From positions 318,691 through 382,690 of the forward strand of contig NW_004797289.1 in the NCBI RefSeq assembly GCF_000002075.1: a stretch of DNA of 64,000 bases, in the 5' to 3' direction. A program made the position numbers and the translations under genes. Below the pieces are notes generated by a model that was not told the DNA's origin, made no database searches, and saw nothing but the letters and a program-made list of their open reading frames with translations. Shown piece by piece: positions 29,547 to 55,161 of the stretch. Source of the stretch: Aplysia californica. Its lineage: Eukaryota. Positions within the stretch are counted from its first letter, which is position 1, and the number at the start of each line of letters is the position of its first letter.

Positions 29547-30463
29547 CTGAGAAAAGAAAAGAAAAAAGCTCTTTGAGAACACAGCACATCAACTGACGTC
29601 AAACATGGCACTTTTTTCCACAATATTGGCTCTGGAACACACTAAAACCATACATATTAACTTTTCGTTCATTTCACAAAAGCACATCCAGGTGTTGAAA
29701 TCTACAAAAATTTCATTTCACTTCTTCTTTTCTTCTTCACCACACCAGAGACCATGCCAACCACCTGCTCTTTCCGCTTTGTTGTGTTGTTCATCTGTTG
29801 TAGTTGATGAAGACCGGGAAATAATGTAGGGAGGTGCAGATATGTGTGTTTAACACCTTTCCACTCCACTAAGTTCACAACAACAGCATAAACACTCACA
29901 AGTTCAAACTCTTCAGCCTCGGAAAAACTGAGCAACGGAGTCAACACTCACAATTTCAATACCATTCCACTCCACTTACACAATTGGTCCATTTTATGGA
30001 CAAGCGGGCTAACCCAGGTTTCGGGGATTTCCAGAAATCTTGACCTACATCAAAAATGCGCATTGCCCTACCTATAGGAGAAGTCTGGTTTCCTTGGTGG
30101 GTATATTTGTTTGGTTATAGAGAAAACTCTCATTGTCTTTTGAAAAAACTGAACAAGGATTCAGAAACTTTACCTTCGATTTCTCAAAACAGCATTTTTC
30201 GGGACAGCCCCCTTGTGCTTAAAAGCAACCAATTACAATTAATAACAACAACAACACCTACACTCACAATTTCAGCTTGTACACTCAACTAAAACAGGCA
30301 ACAACAATGTCTACACTCATAAATTTTCACTCTTCAGGTTCGGAGAAACTGAATAACAGTATCAAAACTCACAAGTTCGATAACTTTCGGCTCCACTTAC
30401 GAAACAATAACAACTTTTCCAAACACAAGTTTAACAAACAGCCACAACAATGTCTCCACTCAC

Positions 30464-30712: not shown

Positions 30713-31088
30713 CTTTTGGTTTGTTTTTTTAGTAGAGGTTTTACGGCGCTCGTAACTGCATAAGGTCATATGAGCGCCAGAAGATAAGAGGTGTTACAAG
30801 AGAGTAAAAAAAAAAAAAAAAAAGAAGGGGAGATAAGGACGATAGGTGTTCGATAGGAAAGAAGGAGCAAACCACACCACAGCACCCGCAAACCACACCA
30901 GAGCACCCGCCAACCACCCACTAGTAGGAGTTTTACGGCACTTGCAATACAATAAGGTTATATAAGTGCTGAAGATTAGAGGTGTTACAAGAGAGTAACA
31001 AACATAAAAAAAGAGGGGAGGTAAGAACAATAGATGTTTGATTGGAAAGAAGGAACAAACCACACCAGAGCACCCACCAACCACCCAC
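30713..31088 (-). mobile_element. Retroposon A (30713-30921) inserted in the tail of retroposon B (30922-31088)
   Basis: TSD TAGTAGGAGTT at 30702-30712 and 30922-30932. Confidence 0.85.
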
Positions 31089-33987: not shown

Positions 33988-36193
33988 CACGGCGGGTTTG
34001 GAGCGCCCATTTAGTTTCGGCTGGCGCGAGGCAAGCAAGCCCGCGCTTCCCCAGGTCACGGGGTCATTTACCTGCGCCACCGGGGATTTCCCTTATCAGC
34101 CAAACACCGGCAGCGCTCTTGTATTTTTTGCAAAGTTTACCAACACAGTGAGCCAAAGCTAATGTAAGATGAACATTTTAATTAAGACAACGTAAATATT
34201 CAACATATTAAGGAAGAAATGAAGAAAATCGGAAGCCCATGGTACATTACACTTAAAAGCTGTGAAGTTCTCAAAAAGGGGACTTAATTTGATAAATGTG
34301 TCATGGGTAATCAATTATAAACTTCAATTTAAATGTGATTGCCCCCAACGAATTCAATCAAATTTGCACACAGGACTGAGAACATAATGGAAATTTGTAC
34401 TCACAAAGGGGCATATACAAGAAGCTTCTGGATCCGTAATTATTCAGGTTTGAAGTAGATTTTTTGCAATACTCTTGCTTTGCGACCTTGATCTTTCATA
34501 GCGATATCCACGGTACATGTAACTACAGTACAGATCTTTCCTTGCCGATACACTTATGAAAACACAACCTAAACACAAAATACAAAAAGAACACAATATT
34601 GCGGGACTGGAGGACGCTGTAAGCTTTCGTCTTTTGATGGGTGGTGCACACGACAGAGTAGCTTAAGGTGGGTTTGGACGTGTTGTGACTGCATGATTGT
34701 TTTGACGTGTTTTTGTTTGTCTTTTATTGCTGCTACTCGTTTTTCCAGCTTGGCCACGGTTGCATGAATGAGCTCAGCCCCTTGCTCACCATGGAAGGCC
34801 ATTCCAAATCCATATTTTTGTATCCAAGGGATGCAGTGTTTCTCAAGGATGTGTTGTGATGTAGCACATGTTTTACGGCACTATCCACTCAAGACCTTTT
34901 ATTTGCCAAATATGTTTCTGTATAAAGACATATATCGTGTGATGCATGACTGAATATGTGGCATTCTCTCTATAGTGATTGGCTTTCCATGTGCTATTAT
35001 TGTGTGGATATCTTTGAAGGTGACTTTTACTTGAACAAATTTCTCTCTCAGAACAATTAATGCAGTGTCTATTATGCTTTGATTTCGTGTACATGCAACT
35101 GTTCTTTTTGTTAAAAATGATGTTAGCTGTCTGTACACATGGGCTGTGATTTATTTTTGGCAGTGGTTTCCTATAAATGAACGGCTGTGGTAGGCCTGTG
35201 GTGTGACGTGTTGTTTGAGGATGTTATCAAATTCAGAGCAGGCAGGACTTGACCTTGGAATAAGCTCCTCAAACTCTTAACTCTGACAGCTGATCATGTA
35301 CACTAGAACCCTCCCTCTCAAATCTCTCTGCTTCTCGTGGATTATCTGACAAAACCTGACAGCCCTGTAACAATTGAATGTCCCCCTCGTTTTTTTCAGC
35401 CCTCTTTCATTTTTTGCCGTAGATATGCACATTTTGTCCTATTCCAGGCCTGCAATTCTCCATAGATTGATGGACCAGCTGTACATCTATATCATGTGCA
35501 GCCTCCTCAAGAAGGCCATGATGTTTGAGCACAATGCCCACCATATGATCATGTTGTGTGGCATTCCATGACAAAAATATTGTTAAAAATGACAACGAAA
35601 ATCAGATGTAGCAGAGGCAAGAAAACTAAAAACAGTAAGGATGAATGTTCAGAGTGGTGGGTTGGGGTTTTTTTTTAATCACCGAAAATCATAGAATAAC
35701 TTAGTGCACTTGAAACTTGCACATGTAAATGAAAATTGTCACCACAGTTGATACATAAATTTCTGTTTAAATCGTTGGGGGCCGGATTGAAATATTTAAA
35801 TTCAAACTGAAAAAGTTCTGAGCATTGAAGATGCCAGTTTGAAAATCACAGACTTACTTAAATCCCTTGTAAAACTGATATAATCGGACTTGCAAGAAAA
35901 CAAGTTATATCGGCTTACAGGTCAAACATAGCACGTTACAATGAAATCTCAATCGGCCTTGTAGCATTTATAGTTTCAGAGTTAGGAGGCTTTCAATTCG
36001 CACTAAAACGCCATATTTACTACTGCCCCGGCACAGGAGGAGTGGCGCTGCGGTCACCCCAATTAACCCCTCTGACAAGTGATTTATGATTACTGGGCTG
36101 TCGGGCGGGGCGGGCAGGGTGGTGAGGATGGTCGGGGAGGAACCGGGGAAGAAAAACTAAGTGAGCGGTCTGGATGGTATTTTATCCGCTGTG
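33988..36193 (-). mobile_element. Chapaev/Transib-type (CMC, RAG1-related) DNA transposon relic, 2206 bp
   Basis: Termini CACGGCGG.. and ..CCGCTGTG; 4-bp TSD GCTG (33984-33987, 36194-36197); internal transposase remnants. Confidence 0.8.
34600..35570 (-). pseudogene. Degenerate Chapaev/Transib/RAG1-like transposase, C-terminal part
   Basis: Minus-strand fragments HMVGIVLKHHGLLEEAAHDID; PQAYHSRSFIGNHCQK*; QHILEKHCIPWIQKYGFGMAFHGEQGAELIH (H-x4-H followed by catalytic-E region); stops and frameshifts. Confidence 0.75.
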
Positions 36194-36469: not shown

Positions 36470-38129
36470 TTTTTGTTGTTGTTGTTTTACAGCACTTGCA
36501 ACATAATTAGGTCATACAACTGCCGAAGATAAGAGGTGTTACAAGGGAGTAACAAACACAAAAACAACCACACANNNNNNNNNNNNNNNNNNNNNNNNNN
36601 NNNNNNNNNNNNNNNNNNNNNNNNNNNNNNNNNNNNNNNNNNNNNNNNNNNNNNNNNNNNNNNNNNNNNNNNNNNNNNNNNNNNNNNNNNNNNNNNNNNN
36701 NNNNNNNNNNNNNNNNNNNNNNNNNNNNNNNNNNNNNNNNNNNNNNNNNNNNNNNNNNNNNNNNNNNNNNNGGAGGGTGGGATGTTATAAGATAACATGA
36801 TATGTTTACTGTTTGAATAAAGAGAGGCACATTAACACAACTATTGTCATTTAAGGGAAGGAAAATTACCCCCCAAAAAGACAGACAAGGGAGAGAAATA
36901 AAAGGTGTTGGATTTACGAGGGAAATCCTTCAACTACTCATGTTAAAAATGTGAAATAAAAAGAGCCATACTATTCCGTTAAATAAACTGCATGACGTAA
37001 AAAAAACTTCAGGGTGGGGAAATCGGAGCAATATGAAATTTGTACTAATCCAAATCTGACAAGGGCAGCCTTGTCTAAAAGTCAAGGTGTTGGGTTGGGA
37101 GTTTGATTCCAAACTGCACAAAGCTGAACAGTAAATTTTTACCAGAAGTTCTTTACCCTATCTTCCTTAATTTATGTCACCCCATATGGGTTATGTAAAT
37201 CAGTATGACAGCGGCAAAAAATCCAGTGCCACAGTTGCTAGCACTTAACAGGCTGCTACACTATGTATCCTAAAAAAGCATGAATCCAAAAGAATTATTA
37301 CAAAGTTGCATGAGCATTTGGGTGGAAAGGATACAATATAATCATGACTCCAATCGTATTTAAAAAAAACAAAAATACACCTTTTAACTGTTATGCTTAA
37401 ACGAAAACTTTGAGAAGCAGTAGCTCAAACAAAACCTGTCCACTGACAACAGACATCAAAAGCATCAAGAGACAAGACACAGATGGGAGGGTGAAGGCTG
37501 CCAGTCATGTTACGGTAACAGTTTTACAGCACTTTCAACACAATTAGATAATAGAGTGCCGAAGATTAGGGGTGTTACGAGAGAGCAACCAACATAAAAA
37601 AAGAAGGAGAGATAAGGACGATAGATGTTTGACAGGACAGAAGGAGCAAACCACACCAGAGCACCCGTCAACCACTCTCTCTCTTTGCCAGTCAAACACT
37701 GACGGGTAACACAAACTGACACAAGGCAGCAAGCACAACATAGGCAACACACATAACTTCGTCTCACCCGTCTCATCAGTGGACTCCAATTTGAGCTCCA
37801 GTGGACTGTCCAGCCTGTTGTGGATGACCAGAGCTGACCGGATGATGATGAGTTTGCGGGCACCGCCCTCTTGCTGGACCTCCACCACAATCCGTGCCGG
37901 GGACACGTGGGGCTGAGGACAGCACACAGTAATAAGGGAAAGTGTTAGCAGTGGTGAGCAGCACAAGGCACAGTTAGGTACAAGCAAATGTGTTTGTAAG
38001 TTTAGTTTTAGTTGTAGTAAGAGTTTTACGGCATTTGCAACACAATAAGGCCATATAAGTGCTGAAAAGAGGTGTTACAAAGAGGGTAACAAAGACAAAA
38101 AAGAAAGAGGGGCAATAAGGATGTTAGAT
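36470..38129 (-). mobile_element. Three retroposon B copies (36470-36573, 37513-37676, 37999-38129)
   Basis: consensus match; span also contains the exon at 37768-37912. Confidence 0.8.
37768..37912 (-). CDS. VPS13D: VPS13D exon (PHVSPARIVVEVQQEGGARKLIIIRSALVIHNRL..)
   Basis: cctcag| ... |gtgag, phase 0 to 1. Confidence 0.93.
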
Positions 38130-38242
38130 GTGGTTGTAAGTGTTTTGCTAAGGGAAGGTGGTGTCTCTAGAGGGTCCGGAAGAGACAGAAACATGTGTGG
38201 AAAAGCCAGAAGAATATCCAACAAGACGTTAACTGGCACGAT

Positions 38243-38337
38243 CAGCAGGCAGACCCTTTCATGGATCCTGGAGAGGAGGGAGGAGCAGCTATGGCATTGT
38301 GCCGCCTGCAGTAATACCTATTCTCCAACCAAGTAAG
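38243..38337. repeat. Dispersed ~95-bp repeat, second copy ~21817-21908
   Basis: GCAGACCCTTTCATGGATCCT..TATTCTCCAACCAAGTAAG in both. Confidence 0.8.
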
Positions 38338-38876
38338 AAAATAAGTGTTTTTGGAACAGTTAGGTGCAAGCAATTGTGGTTATAAGTGTTTGGGTACAGT
38401 TACATAGTAAAAAATTATAACTGTAAAATTTGACTCCCCTCACCCACGCCCGAACAATAGAATTAAAAAATTAAGATTATATAGAAGGTTGCCTTCAATT
38501 CTTCTAATGACAACAAGGCCTTTATGTTGATTCAATTGTCCGCTTACGCTAGAAGAATACAATCTTCATTGTAACCTAGAGAACAACTATTCGGCTGAAG
38601 TCGCTGGAAGACACAAAAAAATCTTATCTAGGAATTTTTGGGCATAATCTTGAGCTAAAAACTACCAGCAGAGCCATCAGTGAGAAGAGAGAAGCACACC
38701 TTCAATGTTTGTATAAATATGAGACCACACATATCACCATGACGGGATTATTTTCTTGTAAACTTCTTTAGTCAAATTTTGAAATAGAGTTTTACAAAAG
38801 ATGCATTACATTCCTAAACACTAAGGTAAAACATGGAAGACATTTTAACACAAAGAAGATATCTGGTTCCACTTAC

Positions 38877-39002
38877 AGGTGCCTTTAGCTCAGGATCAGC
38901 ATGTCGGAAATACACTCCTACTTTGTCCACTGTGACAGGGGACAGCCTCTGCCAACCTTCCACAGTCACCAGCAACTGATTCACGTGCATGGCATGAGAT
39001 TT
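38877..39002 (-). CDS. VPS13D: VPS13D exon (KSHAMHVNQLLVTVEGW..PVTVDKVGVYFR..)
   Basis: ctccag| ... |gtaagt, 126 nt. Confidence 0.93.
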
Positions 39003-39532
39003 CTGGAGGGACACAAGAATAAGTGTCAAATAGAAAAATGAGAGACAATATACTGAAAAAGCCTGCATAATATAGGTTTTTCGGAGAGAAGAGATTTAAA
39101 CTCCCTATTTCTTGGGTTGAGAAATGAGAGGGAAAACAGGATCATCGAGGGCTGAACATTTCAGACCAAGCACTCAATGAAAAAGAAGAGAAATTCATTC
39201 ATTTGACCGATTTAATTTTATGCATATCTAGAGGTCTTTGGGATATGCATCAAGATTGTAAATGACTAGCAAATAACTGGATAGGTGTGAAATGCTGAAT
39301 GGGTGCAAGACACATATTTGTAAGGTGGAAAAAGAAAATGATTACTTTTCAAGCACCAAAATTACACTATCAATTCTATGCTCAAAACTGAAAGTCACTC
39401 TTCAATGAGTTTAGTCATTTGGTAAGAAAGTAACTCAAAAACCAATTGGGAAACCAATTACCTGAGCCCATAACAGAGCCCATGAATCATTACACACATT
39501 ACGGCACTAACAGCCTACAAAGAAAACAGCAC

Positions 39533-39662
39533 CTGGTGTCTGAGTTTTTCCCGCCGGTGGAAATGGAAGGGTTTTGTCTCTGATGGGCCAACCCTCTTCC
39601 AGTCAGAGGCTTGGATATAGGCTGACTCTAGCGTCTGTGAGCTGTGACCATCACCAGCAAGA
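39533..39662 (-). CDS. VPS13D: VPS13D exon (LAGDGHS..DWKRVGPSETKPFHFHRREKLRHQ)
   Basis: ccccag| ... |gtgct, phase 2 to 0. Confidence 0.88.
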
Positions 39663-39844
39663 CTGGGGAACAGGACCAGTTGATTTATGAAAAAATGAAG
39701 GTTGCAACGGAAAAAAACAAGCAATTATTGCAGTTAGCATGTGCACCACTTCTAAATTCCACTCTCGTCAATACCAAACAAGACCCTTTTGAAAGTGGGA
39801 ATGATGAAAAAAAGATCAAAGTACAGTGTGTTTTGACCATTAAC

Positions 39845-40248
39845 ATGCAGTGGAATCAGGCGCCCGTCAATTTTTGGGCATACAGAGTTATTGGTATCAT
39901 CTTAAGGCCTGTTCATTTGCCTTACTTTGAATGAAAAAAATATTGTTTTATCTTGAATAGAAGTTGAGATATTTGCGATTGAATGACCTGGGGGTCACCG
40001 GAGGTTGTCAAAGTTTGGTGACTTCCATAACTTGAGAGTCCTTGAAAACTAAAAATTTACAGTTTTTGTCCCTTTAATCAACGTTTTTAGGAAAAATCCA
40101 CATGGAAAAGTGTTTTCCAGTGGACTTAAAAGATGTTGGGGTAAAAAAAAAAAATTCGATATAAATTGCCAAACCAGCATCAAAATGCCGGTTTCTTTGA
40201 TTTCAGTATTTTGACGAGCGCCTGATTTCACCACGCTGCCTCACATTC
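39845..40248. mobile_element. MITE, second copy of 18406-18844
   Basis: GTGGAATCAGGCGCCCGTCAA ... TTGACGAGCGCCTGATTTCAC. Confidence 0.85.
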
Positions 40249-40440
40249 CATTTTCTCTCAGCCTAAAAAAGTGACTGATTGTTTTCCCATTGTTCAAATA
40301 ATTACAGCATAATGTTAATGAACATTAATGTGTAACAAGCATAGAGGTCAAAAGGTAGGTGATAAGTCCTTCAGAAAGTCATCGAGCCACATTATCTGTG
40401 AGAAATAGAATTACCAGTGATCAATCCATGAATGCATTAA

Positions 40441-40522
40441 CACTTTGCCACCTCATTTTGCCCACTGGCGATGTTAACCACCCAGTTTCTTTGGATTTTC
40501 CTCAAAATGTGATGGCAAAGTG
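40441..40522. mobile_element. 82-bp TTAA-flanked mini-MITE
   Basis: TTAA-CACTTTGCCACCTCATTTT ... AAAATGTGATGGCAAAGTG-TTAA. Confidence 0.8.
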
Positions 40523-40938
40523 TTAATCTGGGTATGGGAAAGACAGGGCCTTTTTGCCTTGAGGTAACACATGCCTCTTCAGCTTAAGTCTCTGGTTTGA
40601 TTCCTGCTTCATGCAGGCACTGCCTCTTCAGCATTAGTCTGTTTGATTCCTGCTTCATGCAGGCACTATCTGTGGCTCAATTTCTTTTTCTCTTTTTGTA
40701 TCCCTGAACCTAAGGAAGATAATATCAGGCACTAAGCCTTCTTAATAAAGACAACTAACAACATGTGGGATAAACAATAGTAATGTTTTCCTTCGTTTCT
40801 CTAGAAAACATAGCAATTTGCACCATGTCAATACATTCTTACGTAACCAACAAATACGGGCATCAAAATCAGGACATGAGACAAACAAACAAAAAAAAGT
40901 AATGTTTTCCATTTCCCCATTTTGTTTAACTTGTTTTT

Positions 40939-41421
40939 CACTTATTGTAAGGGTGTGGTGGTAGCAGTAGTTGTTTTTGCACTTACTTTGAGGGTGTGGT
41001 GGTAGCGGTACTCGTTTTTGCACTTACTTTGAGGGTGTGGTGGTCGCAGTACTTTCTTTTTGCACTTACTTTGAGGGTGTGGTGGTTGCGGTACTTTGTA
41101 TTTGCACTTACTTTGAGGGTGTGATGGTCGCAGTGTTTGTTTTTGCACTTACTTTGAGGGTGTGGTGGTAGGGGTACTCGTTTTTGCACTTACTTTGAGG
41201 GTGTGGTGGTCGCGGTACTTTCTTTTTGCACTTACTCTGAGGGTGTGGTGGTCGCAGTGTTTGTTTTTGCACTTACTTTGAGGGTGTGATGGTCGCAGTG
41301 TTTGTTTTTGCACTTACTTTGAGGGTGTGGTGGTCGCAGTGTTTGTTTTTGCACTTACTTTGAGGGTGTGGTGGTAGCGGTACTTGTTTTTGCACTTACT
41401 TTGAGGGTGTGGTGGTCGCGG
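40939..41421 (-). repeat. 12 x 41-42-bp tandem repeat of exon end plus 5' splice site
   Basis: Plus-strand CACTTA at 40939, 40980, 41021, 41063, 41105, 41146, 41187, 41229, 41270, 41311, 41352, 41393. Confidence 0.95.
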
Positions 41422-41637
41422 TGAGAAACCACAAGTTGCTGCCTGTGTCATTCCGAATGACGTAGGGGATGAACGGTGAACGCTTGTGCTGGGAACGTTC
41501 CGTCCCCGTGCGGGCCAAAAGGTGGGAGGAACCCGTGCCACGCTGCTGGGTGCGGTAGTCCTCCGTCCAGTTGCCGCTGGTCTGACGGTACAGGTCGATG
41601 AGTGTGGAGGTCAGGTTAAGGTTCAGCACATCAGAGG
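41400..41637 (-). CDS. VPS13D: VPS13D exon (SDVLNLNLTSTLIDLY..PFIPYVIRNDTGSNLWFLTATTTPS)
   Basis: cccag| ... |gtaagt, phase 1 to 2; PYxIxNxTG motif. Confidence 0.93.
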
Positions 41638-42105
41638 CTGGGAGCATGGGAAGAAACATAGGAGTTGAAACACTTTACGACCGTTATGTAATGACATGTT
41701 CCTATCAATGTTTGCCGTATCTGTGTACAGCCCAGCCAAGCTCTCCTGTTCGAAGCCTCTTCATTACAGTCATAACTCCATCATTCAAGTCATTTTTTTC
41801 CCAAGTTATAGGTTATTAGTATGGTAAAAATGCATTATTTACTTTTTTGTATCCACAATATAGAAGCGTTCTGTTTTGTATGCCAAAAATCCAATTATTG
41901 AGGCACCTTTCTTCTGCTCAAGTCAAAACTTTGACTTAACTAACAACTGTTTGTTTATGTTTTCTCAAAACAGCACAAAAAATGACTAAGGTAATCATAG
42001 AGATGATATGTGTTTGATACGAGTAAAACATCTGGGGGGTGGGGGGGAGGTATCTCTATACAGAACATTTAAGGCGTATAAGAACAAAACTAAAAAATAC
42101 TGTAC

Positions 42106-42167
42106 CAGCAATCTGCACGGCCAGTCGTTTCTCTGGCTTGGAGTACTGCTTCCACTCAGTCAAACAT
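42106..42167 (-). CDS. VPS13D: VPS13D exon (CLTEWKQYSKPEKRLAVQIA)
   Basis: ccccag| ... |gtaca, phase 2 to 1. Confidence 0.88.
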
Positions 42168-42921
42168 CTGGGGACAGGCAAAAATGGTAACCATGATATC
42201 ACGTTACTAAAGATCTGATGTATGTCACTGAGAAATAAACCCTTCGGTATAAACAAATCATTTTTTCTACCTTTAGTATGCATTTTTCAACCCAAAAAAT
42301 AAGGAGTTTAAATCTCTTCTAGTAATCTCTCACTACAAAGCCTGGGAAATACAATGGCAGATTTGCTACAACATTCAAAATAAAATAGATTTAAATCTTT
42401 CTATAAAACTGTGGCTGAAGGCTGCTATGTGGTTTCTCTTCAGGAGCAAAAGAGAAATTATAAGTGGGTCACCATAAAAAAAACCTGTTTTGAGTTATAA
42501 GAAACAAATTGACACAATGAAGGCCATTCAATGCAAGGAAAAGGTAAGACAGACAGACAGGCAGAGAAGAACAACAGAAGGAAAGAAGAGAAGTAGGACC
42601 TTAGTAAAAGAGTTCAACACTCTCTTCTAACGACTCTACAAGCAGGACCTACTGCTAAAACTTCTGCCTTTCACTCTCCAACCAAGGCAACTACCTGTAC
42701 TGCAATAAGGAACAATTTATCATAAGCACTTGCACTGCAAACTATACAAAGCTGGCCCAAAGAGTATAAGCAGAGACAAACAACACCAAGCATAAATCAG
42801 AAACTCCCTGTTCTGAAATAAGGAACAACTTTTAAGCACTTCCACTGTGAACTATGCAGAGCTGGCCCAAAGAGAATGAGCACAGAGACAAACACCACCA
42901 AGCATGAAACAAACAGCTTAC

Positions 42922-43039
42922 CTCCAGGGCTCAAGGCAAGGCTCCCATCCAGAGAGTTTTCTGTTGTAGTATTCAGACACCAACTGGAATGATGCTTTGC
43001 CCTCAATGCTTGGCTCAAGGTCTTGCTTGATGCTCAGAC
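42922..43039 (-). CDS. VPS13D: VPS13D exon (..EYYNRKLSGWEPCLEPW)
   Basis: ctctag| ... |gtaag, phase 1 to 2; hallmark VPS13 YYN..WEP.EPW motif. Confidence 0.95.
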
Positions 43040-43376
43040 CTAGAGATACGTCATAAATTCATTTAAACATATAAAAAATCTTGTGTTTTCAGGAAAATTC
43101 TGTGTGGAAAAAAGTTGTACCTTCAACGATTTAATCATGAATCACACTTACATTCTGGAATTAAGATAGGGAGGTTTATTATCATGCATATTCATCTGTC
43201 TGCTGGGAGAAGAAATCCCTCTCAGCTTCATTTGGCTCCGACAGGCTGAATCAAAGAAGAATGCCTCCTACATAGTCTGAATTATGCTGATGACGGCGCA
43301 AAACACTTACAATTATACATACATCAAATTTTGAAGACTGATCAAACATCTCTAAGGAGAAAAATTTTGGCAGTGA

Positions 43377-43558
43377 GTTTTAGTTTTAGTAGAGGTTATT
43401 CGGCGCTCGCAACTGCATAAGGTCATATGAGCGCCAGAAGATTAGAAGTATCACAAGAGAGTAACAAACATAAAAAAAGAAAAAGGGGAGATAAGGACGA
43501 TAGATGTTTGGTAGGAAAGAAGGAGCAAACCACACCAGAGCACCCGCCAACCACCCAC
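43377..43558 (-). mobile_element. ~175-bp retroposon, subfamily A, full length
   Basis: 12-bp TSD TTTTGGCAGTGA at 43365-43376 and 43559-43570. Confidence 0.92.
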
Positions 43559-43601
43559 TTTTGGCAGTGAACGAAGAGCAATACATCTGGGCACTACTCA
43601 C

Positions 43602-43683
43602 CATTACAAGAGACTTCAACCAAGGGGATATCTGCATCGCCACAGTCATCAATAAGACAGAGGCTGATACTGTCCGCATTCAG
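43602..43683 (-). CDS. VPS13D: VPS13D exon (LNADSISLCLIDDCGDADIPLVEVSCN)
   Basis: ttccag| ... |gtgagt, phase 0 to 1. Confidence 0.93.
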
Positions 43684-44031
43684 CTGGAACAAGAGAACAT
43701 GAACCTTGATCACAACACAGACACAGACTTAGTCTACAGACCTTTGACAAAGCATTCCTGGTCAATATTGGTGAGTAAACACTAACCTCTCAAATGTTTT
43801 ATTCACCAATATATGCCAAAAAGAATTTATCCTGACTTTGTTTCAAAAGAACAGTTAAAAATGAGTCACGGTGTTGTTTTATAAGTAACTTTAATATTTG
43901 AACACAGATTTCTTCCAAATTTTCACACAAGGTAGATAAATGGACTGGCTACCCCTGCACACACAAATTAGTAAAAAAGTAGGTCAAGGTGACCTTGAGA
44001 GTGAGCACTGTTGATCAAACAACAAAATTTA

Positions 44032-44640
44032 CCCTCGTTGTTCATGGCTGACAAGCAGGATCAATTGTCACATAATTGTGGTAGGCCTCAAAACAGTCTT
44101 TACAGCATCCCTTGTTGCAAGCAGGGCAGTAGGTTGTTGTTTGCACTGGTTTGCCTGGCTTTGTGCTATTTCCTTGCTTCTTACACTGAGCGCAGTCACA
44201 TGCGGCTAAACCCTTATCAAGATATTCGTGTCTCCTTTGCCCAGCGTACAAATTGGTTTAGTTAGCTAATGTCACAAAAAATTTTGCAGAAAATATTCAA
44301 TAGGTTCTGAGTTTAGATCTAATATTTTAAAGAGATCATACATCTCTGTGAATGGCAAAACATTTCGCCAAGAGCCTGTGCAGTCATGACTCCACCTATC
44401 AGCGGGCGTGGCACAAGCACTACCTTCAGCTGTGAATGTGCGCACGTTCTCAAAACTAGATATAGGCCTAGCCCCATTGCTCTTTTCACTATCATCATCT
44501 GAATCACAAATTCCCATCAACTGTTGCGCATCAAAATCATCTTCAATAAAGATATCTGACTGATTATCTTCAACATCAGTCAGGAATGTGAAATAACTCA
44601 AAACAGATTTTTCTCTGAAGGACAAGGCAACTCATCTTCA
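44032..44640 (-). pseudogene. Internally deleted piggyBac-like transposase relic
   Basis: Acidic N-terminus ending EPIEYFLQNF, joined to Cys-rich C-terminus CAQC..TTTYCPACNKGCCKDCFEAYH. Confidence 0.7.
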
Positions 44641-45248
44641 GATAAATCACTCATCTTTCTTCTTCAAAGCCACTAGCTCTTTCAACTCCATTATCAAAAC
44701 TTTCTACTGGGCAAACAAACTTTAACACAGTTGTTTCCCCTGACACAGGCAGCAGAAAGTAGTGATAACTGGAGTCAATTCAGAGCAGCGGTTTTCAGCG
44801 GTATAGGATTCTAGGGCAGCAGCGGATAGCAGCAGTAAAGGAAGCTGAAGGTAAAGAGATAAAAATATATCAGGAATAACAAAGTGTAACGTTTGATACA
44901 GCTGGCATACTTTCTCGTGTTTGTCTTTGGAGTTTGCCAAAAACTTTGCAGTAACTTGGCTCAATAATGTACCAGTGAAAATTATCTCTTCCGGTCTCTT
45001 CTGCACAGCGCCAGACCTGAGAAGTCCATTGCAGTCCCTCTCCTGGCTGGGTGACCAGATGGGGTACTTTGCACTGCTGGCTGTTTGACTGAAAAGTGTT
45101 AAATTCAGGCAGTACACCTTCATTTTTGCATTTTACATGAATCAATTAAGTTAATGTTTTCTTGCTGCAGGGACAATAAAGTTAATCATGTCTTTCTTCA
45201 AGGATCAGTTGGGAAAATTTTTTTTTGTTTGCACAAAGAATCCCTCAC

Positions 45249-45442
45249 CTCTAGAGCAGTAACCATGAAATCTGACTGCGTCTCTGAACCCAGAGCGCCA
45301 TCAGAAGCACCCGACTTCCTGTGAGAAGCATTCTGGGACAGCCACAGCGAAGCTTCCTCCACATTCCAGCTACATGCTGCCAGAGCACGCCGCACATCCT
45401 GTTCCACAAAGCCCAGGGTCGTCAACTGCTCCACCTCTTCTT
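45249..45442 (-). CDS. VPS13D: VPS13D exon encoding UBA domain (VEQLTTLGFVEQDVRRALAACSWNVEEASLWL)
   Basis: gacag| ... |gtgag; LGF..AL....NVEEA..WL UBA signature. Confidence 0.93.
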
Positions 45443-45909
45443 CTGTCCGGACAAAATAATGACGTGGAAATGAGTACACATTTGTTTGCAGAAAGACAAG
45501 CACATTGATGTTATAATGGTCATTTAGTGCAGAGGCCGGAAGGGAGAAGGTAGACAGACAAACAGAAACAATGGAAAGAAAGAAAAGGAGGACCTACCAC
45601 ACATGCCCTCCTGGCATCTGCTTGAATTACAAATGTTCTGTTTGAGTGAACAAAAGCACATTCACACAACAACAATCATTTAGAAGCGGGGGGGGGAGTA
45701 AGGTAGACATGCAGACAGACACACAACGGAGAAAAAGAGAAGAAATAGGACCTACAAGAGACACTGTGGGGGGGAGTAAGGTAGACAGGCAGACAGACAC
45801 ACAACAGAGGAAAAGAGAAGAAATAAGACCTACAAGAGGCATCCTCCAACTACCCACCCACCCACTACTGCCGCCATGTCCATGGTAAAAGATAGGAGCA
45901 GCCACCAAC

Positions 45910-46261
45910 CTGTAGTGGATTTACTGCTGCTGCCACAGGGCAAGGAGAACCCCGCCATGGACGGAAGCATGCTCTTTGTGAGGTTGTCTTCAGGAACCAT
46001 CGTCTCCTTAGCTCCACTCTGTTGTGCCACCTGGGACGAAGCACATTTCTTGGTCGCTGTTGCTGCTGTGGTTGCTGTTCTTGTCGCTGAGGAGGTTGAG
46101 GTTGAGGCTGTTGTCGCTGCTGCAGTCGCTGTAGTCTGCTGCTGTTGCTGCTGTTGTTGCTGATGCGCCTGGAGGGCTTGCTGTGGCAGGGAGTTGGCGA
46201 TGGCCAAAAACATCACCATGTCATGGTAGGACACACGCATGTTCAGATTCTTCAGTAGAAT
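45910..46261 (-). CDS. VPS13D: VPS13D exon (ILLKNLNMRVSYHDMVMFLAIANSLP + polyQ/T/A tract)
   Basis: tttcag| ... |gttgg, phase 0 to 1; donor less certain. Confidence 0.85.
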
Positions 46262-47947: not shown

Positions 47948-48325
47948 CTGAGGGGACAAGCAACAAAGATGTTTACATAGAATAAACTTGACGGAGAAGA
48001 AGAATGTTTACATAGAACAAACTTGACGGAGAAGAAGAATGTTTACAAGGAACAAACTTATCAGCTATGAGCTGGCAACAACTTATCTTCAGATATTTGG
48101 AATTGACCATGATTCTTCATCTGAGAATATCACTCACACAACTGAACATTTTTTACTGCTGTTTATTATTTTTATTTCACAAAATAGAGAAATAAAGACT
48201 TTTTTTCTGTTGATCTCATTTACCTTTTTTTTTTAAAGAAAAGAAAAAGACATCACTTTCATTTATCCCCACGGGAAAGCATGGGTCGAAGGGTAAATCA
48301 TCACTTAAATAAAACGTCCTCTCAC

Positions 48326-51527: not shown

Positions 51528-51756
51528 TTTTAAAGCGAGTGTCATAGATGCATATCTGGTTGGACACGAGGTCCACCTCCTTCAGCTGGTTGGAGTAGCT
51601 GGAAAAGGACAGTTGGGAGCGGATGAAGTCCAAGCGAGCCAGCGACTTCTCCGCCACATCTGGCGACATCTCATGAGAGTGCAGCAATTCCACGGTCACG
51701 TTGCGGAGGTCGATAACCAGACTAATGCTTTTCCATGGCCGACCACTCAGAACAGT
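51528..51756 (-). CDS. VPS13D: VPS13D exon (TVLSGRPWKSISLVIDLRNV..SLARLDF..DTRFK)
   Basis: ttctag| ... |gtatg, phase 0 to 1. Confidence 0.92.
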
Positions 51757-54528: not shown

Positions 54529-55161
54529 CTAGAAACAAACATTCCACCTCAAGATACAGCAAAATATCACAAACAATGACACACAATTTCCAGACACCTC
54601 AAGATATAGCAAATATTTAAAATGTAACAACATTTCCAGACCCCTCAAAGTACGGCAAATATCACAATGTTACATAATTTTTCAGACGCTTTAAGGTGTG
54701 GCAAAAGTCACAGTGTTACATAATAGCCAGACAGCTCGAAGTACGGCAAACATCTCAAACAATGTTTTCTAGTATGTCCAAAGACCTGAAGATACAGCAA
54801 AATATCTTAAACAATATTTCTTTCCCAATACCCAAACACGAAATTTCAATAACTTTCCAATTCAGTCAGCAAAATTCATCTTTCAAATAACTTCACAAAC
54901 ATAGCACATAGCAGGTCCCATAAGTCTGCTCGTCTCACTGACAGTACCTATTCCTTCAAAAAATTTTCAGGTACACTGATTATTAGGAATGCTTACTATA
55001 TATTGCTATACTTCTAAAACCTTCCAGGAACTCAGGGAGAAACAGGGCCAATGACGTAAAAATCTGTTGCTTTGCAGTTTGAAAAAACTATAGCCAAATA
55101 TTCCTGCAATCTAGCTGACGAAGAATGGAAAAAAAAAGAGTCCTGAGTGAGGAGCGGGTAC

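What the first reader, a model, noticed from the sequence alone, without database searches (positions are those of the whole stretch)
40939..41421. Twelve-copy tandem array of an exon end plus consensus 5' splice site
The minus-strand unit ACCGCGACCACCACACCCTCAAA|GTAAGTGCAAAAACAAGT is the last ~22 coding nt of exon 41400-41637 plus the first ~19 intron nt. Eleven units keep an intact GTAAGT: the real donor and 10 decoys at 41-42-nt spacing. Only the most distal unit has lost it. Reading past the first donor gives TCA AAG TAA, so every downstream donor yields a premature stop. The gene must therefore pick the first of 11 near-identical donors, or lose output to nonsense-mediated decay. Inference: copy number could act as a heritable expression rheostat or U1 snRNP sink, and the array is a natural test of first-come co-transcriptional donor choice.
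Basis: partly seen in the sequence, partly recalled or inferred. Interest (0 to 1): 0.7.

Follow-up and report, generated by a model that had tools for sequence, protein, structure and literature searches.

The report
Splice-donor minisatellite in gastropod VPS13D intron
In a gastropod's VPS13D gene the end of one exon and its splice signal are repeated 12 times into the next intron, the transcripts seen use the first signal, and similar repeats sit at other exon ends in this genome, so this is likely a tolerated repeat of a kind already known from human and lancelet genes rather than a gene-specific dial.

Summary
The array is real: 12 units of 41-42 nt (40929-41422, minus strand), each 23 exon nt plus 18-19 intron nt; 11 keep GTAAGT and any downstream donor gives TCA AAG TAA. 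The host is VPS13D of a gastropod. Transcript contigs of 4 of 4 runs (4 studies) join donor 1 to the acceptor at 39662; none shows another donor, but contigs drop rare forms. The arrangement is known: human F7, CBS, IFI6, LMNB2, PDGF minisatellites and lancelet 'mirages'. In F7 minigenes 1-12 units did not change first-site use (PMC1557585). It is common here: 27 of 50 donor-motif arrays begin behind a coding-like frame, against 2 of 30 control arrays. This scan found the same class before, in this genome (RCBTB1) and in several others. No sign of a rheostat or of selection on the decoys. The one open point is a genome-wide excess of arrays at donor motifs (654 vs 101 and 74 control matches; weaker for a second motif, 57 vs 44) with none at an acceptor motif (602 vs 578). 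Verdict: new member of a known kind, low interest.

The parts
41400..41637 (-). VPS13D coding exon whose last 23 nt are the head of repeat unit 1
   Evidence: RNA contigs of 4 of 4 runs cover exactly 41400-41637; aligns to VPS13D-like proteins P0050, P0058, P0030
41391..41402 (-). Authentic 5' splice site AAA|GTAAGT, first intron base 41399, phase 2
   Evidence: Loose ends at 41400 in 4 of 4 runs read the exon that starts at 39662; frame continuous across the junction
40929..41422 (-). 12-unit minisatellite, 41-42 nt, unit = 23 exon nt + 18-19 intron nt
40981..41358 (-). Ten reiterated intact donors (units 2-11) at 41358, 41317, 41276, 41235, 41193, 41152, 41111, 41069, 41027, 40986
   Evidence: no contig spliced from them
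40929..40968 (-). Degenerate last unit, donor changed to ATAAGT, 5-7 differences from the other units
41395..41397 (-). In-frame TAA reached by every transcript that reads past donor 1
39533..39662 (-). Next VPS13D exon; acceptor CAG before 39662
   Evidence: loose-end letters, protein alignment; 3' end inferred from sequence
42106..42169 (-). Previous VPS13D exon
   Evidence: joint 41637-42106 with GT..AG ends in 4 of 4 runs

Best explanation
This is a minisatellite whose unit spans the exon-intron junction of a VPS13D donor; the spliced transcripts seen use the first donor, and the ten downstream copies are likely ignored, so the array is likely a tolerated, near-neutral repeat. Shown: the array, the exon, dominant use of donor 1, the stop behind it, the lack of RNA structure over the copies, and the commonness of such arrays in this genome. 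Inferred: a 41-nt duplication across the junction left the exon and its donor intact, slippage or unequal crossing-over multiplied it into the intron, the spliceosome takes the most upstream of identical donors as in human F7 (exon definition or oriented scanning), and any leak would be removed by nonsense-mediated decay.
For:: contigs of 4 of 4 runs from 4 studies (depth 89, 29, 5, 11) end the exon at 41400 and go on at 39662, none at another donor. (PMC1557585): same architecture in F7, only the most upstream site used, unchanged with 1-12 units; lancelet mirages do not disturb splicing; the array RNA folds worse than 100 of 100 shuffles (z +3.95), so the copies are not hidden in hairpins and position is the likely rule; no extra conservation of GTAAGT; the last unit has decayed; 27 of 50 donor-motif arrays elsewhere start behind a coding-like frame vs 2 of 30 controls (p 1e-5); Pfam hits at E <= 1e-3 for 9 of 50 vs 0 of 30; the same gene holds an older, decayed copy set at another donor.
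Against: Contigs show presence, not absence, and decay would hide leaked forms, so exclusive first-donor use is not shown. In CBS and IFI6 two pseudo-sites are used. Units 1-11 all keep the hexamer (0 of 6 variable columns vs 6 of 29, p 0.56). Donor-motif arrays outnumber controls 2- to 6-fold, which mere tolerance does not explain. The F7 rule was shown in mammalian cells, not in a mollusc.
Confidence: 0.8

Rival explanations
1. Copy-number rheostat: longer alleles leak more splicing to donors 2-11, the products are destroyed by nonsense-mediated decay, and VPS13D output falls with repeat length.
For: All downstream donors give a stop. Leak to nearby pseudo-sites is reported for CBS and IFI6. 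Repeat length associates with splicing at thousands of human repeats (PMC10078293, abstract start and passages). One depth-2 contig hints at another allele.
Against: No leaked form in 4 of 4 runs. F7 minigenes with 1-12 units gave the same pattern. No excess conservation of the donors. Such arrays are spread over unrelated genes.
Confidence: 0.08
2. U1 snRNP sink or protective U1 landing strip: the copies bind U1 without being spliced and so affect nearby splicing or guard the intron against early cleavage and polyadenylation, and are kept for that.
For: Ten exposed sites that each match U1 at seven of nine positions (U1 sequence recalled) in unstructured RNA. Genome-wide excess of arrays at donor motifs but not at the acceptor motif tested.
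Against: The intron is only 1.7 kb. Ten sites on one moderately expressed pre-mRNA cannot deplete an abundant snRNP (established knowledge). Older copies at another donor of the gene have decayed. No test of binding was possible.
Confidence: 0.07
3. Assembly artefact: the array or its copy number comes from mis-joined reads.
For: Several similar arrays in this assembly abut N runs, so repeat lengths are not always resolved.
Against: Units differ in a patterned way. Contigs of another run carry the units at raised depth, and an intronic contig of X4 runs from the distal units into unique intron.
Confidence: 0.03

Closest known systems
Human F7 intron 7 VNTR (37 bp, 5-9 copies; Borensztajn et al. 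2006, PMC1557585; read: abstract, Introduction, one Results section, Discussion, passages)
   Same: First monomer spans the exon-intron boundary; identical donors repeat down the intron; the most upstream is used; similar unit length and copy number.
   Different: Here 23 of 41 nt are exonic (4 of 37 in F7); the donor core is GTAAGT; every downstream choice gives a stop (two F7 pseudo-sites do not); polymorphism and back-up use of donor 2 are shown for F7, not here.
Human CBS intron 13, IFI6 (6-16) intron 2, LMNB2 and PDGF intron 4 minisatellites (seen only as described in the Introduction of PMC1557585)
   Same: Donor reiterated 10-25 times in the intron.
   Different: CBS and IFI6 also use two pseudo-sites; no such form was seen here. 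LMNB2 and PDGF use only the authentic site and have longer units (100, 81 bp).
Lancelet 'mirages' (Adh3, globins BflGb6 and BflGb9, troponin C, PGBD5; passages of PMC3087553 and PMC3902484; the original Adh3 paper was not held)
   Same: Invertebrate tandem repeats that duplicate an exon-intron boundary, common in the genome, unstable in length, no aberrant mRNA reported.
   Different: Mirages are reported at both boundary types; here a donor-motif excess and no acceptor-motif excess was counted, although this gene has one two-copy acceptor duplication. Host is a gastropod.
Splicing-associated tandem repeats (spl-TRs, PMC10078293; start of abstract and passages)
   Same: A repeat at a splice site that could act on splicing by its length.
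   Different: Those are defined by a length-splicing association, which could not be tested here.

Membership tests
Junction-spanning minisatellite (F7 IVS7 type, lancelet mirage) | Head-to-tail array of minisatellite-size units | tested here: met
   41-42 nt, 11.9 copies, 89%
Junction-spanning minisatellite (F7 IVS7 type, lancelet mirage) | First unit spans a real exon-intron boundary | tested here: met
   RNA contigs end the exon at 41400, inside unit 1
Junction-spanning minisatellite (F7 IVS7 type, lancelet mirage) | Splice site reiterated intact in the intron | tested here: met
   10 further GTAAGT donors
Junction-spanning minisatellite (F7 IVS7 type, lancelet mirage) | Normal mRNA made from the authentic, most upstream donor | tested here: met
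   Dominant form in 4 of 4 runs; exclusivity not shown
Junction-spanning minisatellite (F7 IVS7 type, lancelet mirage) | Length or unit-order polymorphism | tested here: inconclusive
   One depth-2 contig of X4 has 5 substitutions and 1 insertion at the unit 10/11 junction, all to letters found in other units, in a combination absent from the window
Junction-spanning minisatellite (F7 IVS7 type, lancelet mirage) | Pseudo-sites take over when the first donor is mutated | not testable with these tools
   Needs a minigene
Splicing-regulatory VNTR (spl-TR) | Repeat length correlates with isoform ratio or expression | not testable with these tools
   No paired genotype and raw RNA for the locus
Splicing-regulatory VNTR (spl-TR) | An alternative junction exists | tested here: inconclusive
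   None in contigs of 4 of 4 runs; contigs drop rare forms
Intron gain by tandem duplication of an AG|GT site | Unit carries AG|GT so that a later copy serves as acceptor of a new intron | tested here: not met
   Junction is AAA|GT (AGA|GT in unit 5); splicing goes to the old acceptor at 39662

The most novel reading that the evidence does not exclude
In this gastropod genome 5' splice sites are preferred birthplaces or refuges of minisatellites: hundreds, perhaps more than a thousand, donors carry reiterated copies, well above the background for equally specific motifs and with no matching excess at acceptors. That would point to a mutational bias at exon ends or to selection for extra U1 sites, and would give a genome-wide natural panel for testing first-donor choice against unit length, copy number and donor strength.
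Probability: 0.3. Interest if true: 0.55.

Novelty: new member of a known kind. Interest (0 to 1): 0.22.

Why it matters
The single array matters little: the architecture, the first-site rule and the copy-number minigene are in print for human F7, and lancelet mirages show the same in an invertebrate. It is one more case that first-donor choice holds outside chordates, and a caution for gene prediction and read mapping. What could matter is the population of such arrays in this genome. If the donor-side excess holds up against an annotation, one genome offers hundreds of natural splice-site competition experiments and a lead on where minisatellites are born.

Tried and rejected
1) Raw polyA reads X21-X23 on 36800-46000: near-zero depth on the VPS13D exons, only dispersed repeats were hit; no information on donor use. 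No holder was on record as RNA; the four runs are RNA by guess and behave as RNA, since they join exons at GT..AG. 2) Pfam on the array exon alone: 0 families; identity came from other exons and orthologues. 3) Homologue search with a 77-aa exon: nothing. 4) Triple GTAAGT pattern: 5254 vs 4833 reversed, swamped by (GTAA)n microsatellites, uninformative. 5) MAGGTRAG triple: 2902 vs 394, but inflated by one dispersed repeat family and (AAGGT)n, not used. Eight arrays picked by hand (L037-L039, L041, L044-L047) were left out of the counts, except L037, which belongs to the AAGGTRAGT set; L039 and L041 have weak Pfam hints, L038 and L044-L047 show no evident exon end. 6) RNA structure masking the decoys: rejected. 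7) Selection on GTAAGT: not detected. 8) General clustering of repeats near exon edges in this gene: 7 of 18 arrays within 100 nt vs 3.7 simulated, p 0.058, on a hand-made, incomplete list of 44 exons: inconclusive. 9) PDB check of three upstream frames: 1 clear (L053), 1 weak (L051), 1 none (L056). 10) A supposed exon at 30070-29980 was dropped: the orthologous exon is 29546-29493. 11) The original mirage paper was not held. 12) Conservation of the array in other species could not be tested: no related genome is held.

Full report
1. Observation. Tandem Repeats Finder reports 40931-41419, period 41, 11.9 copies, 89% matches. Splitting the minus strand by unit gives 12 units from 41422 to about 40929, 41 or 42 nt each, made of 23 exon nt and 18-19 intron nt. 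Units 1-11 carry GTAAGT (41399 to 40986); unit 12 reads ATAAGT. Ten donors are AAA|GTAAGT and unit 5 is AGA|GTAAGT. Units 1-11 differ by 0-5 of 35 aligned positions, unit 12 by 5-7. The unit was found only here in the genome (5 of 5 matches).

2. Host gene. The window's minus strand holds about 44 exons of VPS13D. A large exon matches Haliotis rubra VPS13D-like (46%) and Patella vulgata VPS13D (38%); other exons hit VPS13_M, UBA and VPS13_VAB (5 of 16 frames scanned had a hit); long relatives align in order along the window. The array exon and the next one align to three such proteins. The host is thus a mollusc, nearest named hits gastropods; earlier scan notes call it the sea hare Aplysia (not tested here).

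3. Which donor is used. Three raw polyA runs had no reads on the exons. Contigs of X4, X5, X9 and X13 (4 of 4 laid, 4 studies, depth 89, 29, 5, 11) cover exactly 41400-41637, join upstream to 42106 at GT..AG, and continue at 41400 with the letters of the exon that starts at 39662. No contig leaves the array at another donor. Contigs drop rare forms and nonsense-mediated decay would thin them further, so this shows the dominant form only. Each of donors 2-11 gives the same stop right behind the exon (10 of 10); this follows from a phase-2 intron that starts GTAA. The array RNA folds worse than 100 of 100 shuffles (z +3.95), so the copies are not hidden by structure. The hexamer is not more conserved than the rest of the unit (1 of 6 vs 8 of 29 variable columns; units 1-11: 0 of 6 vs 6 of 29, p 0.56). 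One intronic contig of X4 (depth 2, 40900-41044) carries a unit combination absent from the window, a weak hint of another allele.

4. How common it is. A pattern of three CAGGTRAGH 33-59 nt apart gives 654 matches in the 927-Mb genome against 101 for the reversed pattern and 74 for a GT-to-CT near miss (its reverse 20), while single motifs differ only 1.2-fold (28,990 vs 23,987). Matches overlap, so I counted distinct arrays by eye: in contigs C1-C156 (the first 100 of 654 matches) 20 donor arrays against 6 reversed and 7 near-miss (p 0.017 and 0.010). A second motif, AAGGTRAGT, gave a weaker excess: 57 vs 44 matches, 30 vs 16 arrays; 8 of those 16 control arrays themselves contain GTGAGT. 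An acceptor pattern showed no excess (602 vs 578), but it is looser and I did not inspect its arrays. I fetched the 20 and the 30 donor arrays, 24 of about 25-28 near-miss arrays and the 6 reversed ones. A fixed filter (open frame of 25 or more codons with GC3 of 0.6 or more ending at the first motif copy, not low in complexity) passed 14 of 20 and 13 of 30 donor arrays against 2 of 24 and 0 of 6 controls (27 of 50 vs 2 of 30, p 1e-5). Pfam hits at E <= 1e-3 run up to the first donor in 9 of 50 (laminin G, ETF, ACE, EF-hand, ABC membrane, AAA, GCP5, WD40, dynamin) and in 0 of 30 controls (22 scanned, 8 had no frame of 20 aa); one more matched hexosaminidase in the PDB. Frames of the first set were chosen by hand, and none of these other donors was checked with RNA. 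The two motifs cover only a small share of donors, so hundreds of such arrays, perhaps more than a thousand, is an extrapolation. In VPS13D itself another donor (30463) has two older, decayed copies and one acceptor (51756) has a 142-nt two-copy duplication.

5. Mechanism. Inferred: a short duplication across a donor leaves the exon and the first donor intact, so it costs nothing if the spliceosome takes the most upstream site; slippage or unequal crossing-over then adds units, the edge unit escapes homogenisation and decays, and rare leaks would be degraded. The same event across an acceptor can put a decoy AG ahead of the true one, which may explain why acceptors show no excess. Tolerance alone does not explain an excess over background at donors; that needs a mutational bias near exon ends, longer survival of repeats next to exons, or weak selection. 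The window hints at general crowding of repeats near exon edges (7 of 18 within 100 nt vs 3.7 expected, p 0.058).

6. Known systems. PMC1557585 (abstract, Introduction, one Results section, Discussion and passages read) describes the human F7 intron 7 VNTR with the same layout, lists IFI6, CBS, LMNB2 and PDGF, shows that pseudo-sites work but do not compete, and reports that constructs with 1-6 and 8-12 units all use the most upstream site. PMC3087553 and PMC3902484 (passages) describe lancelet mirages, length-unstable and without aberrant mRNA. PMC10078293 (start of abstract and passages) catalogues human repeats whose length tracks splicing. Ten literature searches listed no paper on this VPS13D array or on a genome-wide donor-versus-acceptor count in a mollusc; the library lacks most subscription papers, and no supplements were read. 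This scan has noted the class before: once in this genome (RCBTB1) and in the 8 findings listed from other genomes; these are unchecked notes, not support.

7. Verdict. Observation confirmed; interpretation partly supported. It works like, and on the features testable here is a member of, the junction-spanning minisatellites. Tolerated repeat 0.8, rheostat 0.08, U1 strip 0.07, artefact 0.03. Interest 0.22; the genome-wide donor bias is the only part worth a follow-up.

Noticed in passing
window 30501-29854 (minus strand): Older mirage at another VPS13D donor (30463): exon tail plus donor copied at 30359-30292 (donor decayed to ATGAGT) and at 29936-29893 (intact TT|GTGAGT at 29899); the segments 30400-30273 and 29979-29854 are homologous and each opens with a further GTAAGT.
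   Followed up: partly
window 51972-51745 (minus strand): 142-nt two-copy duplication across the acceptor at 51756; the upstream copy keeps a polypyrimidine tract and CAG, a decoy acceptor ahead of the true TAG. Use not checked.
   Followed up: partly
window 42689-42905, 45690-45838, 47969-48059, 54573-54758, 4272-4389: Tandem repeats that lie within 100 nt of an exon edge without crossing it.
   Followed up: partly
window 43390-43560, 37550-37700, 38000-38070, 2250-2600, 30730-31084: A high-copy dispersed short element, heavily hit by RNA reads and DNA contigs from elsewhere, in places tandemly amplified (61-nt unit at 2250-2600); it makes up nearly all read depth.
   Followed up: no
L041, L051, L052: Three fibrinogen-domain-like genes carry arrays of different sequence at the same exon end (WIVIQ, weak Pfam and PDB hints); L051 and L052 may share one origin, L041 looks independent, which would be recurrence at one homologous donor.
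   Followed up: no
L060 (G000:C144:1117800-1118860): About 52 donor copies of a 15/22-nt unit over 1 kb behind a coding-like exon, the longest among those inspected.
   Followed up: no
G000, many contigs: A dispersed family of about 51-nt tandem units with an AAGGTAAGG motif and an internal palindrome recurs on many contigs, probably part of a mobile element.
   Followed up: no
window 41235-41245 (unit 5): The A-to-G change in unit 5 creates CCCTCAG, a weak acceptor-like site just before its donor; no use seen.
   Followed up: no
window 44045-44631 and 34572-35150: Open frames inside VPS13D introns that look like transposase remnants by eye; not searched.
   Followed up: no
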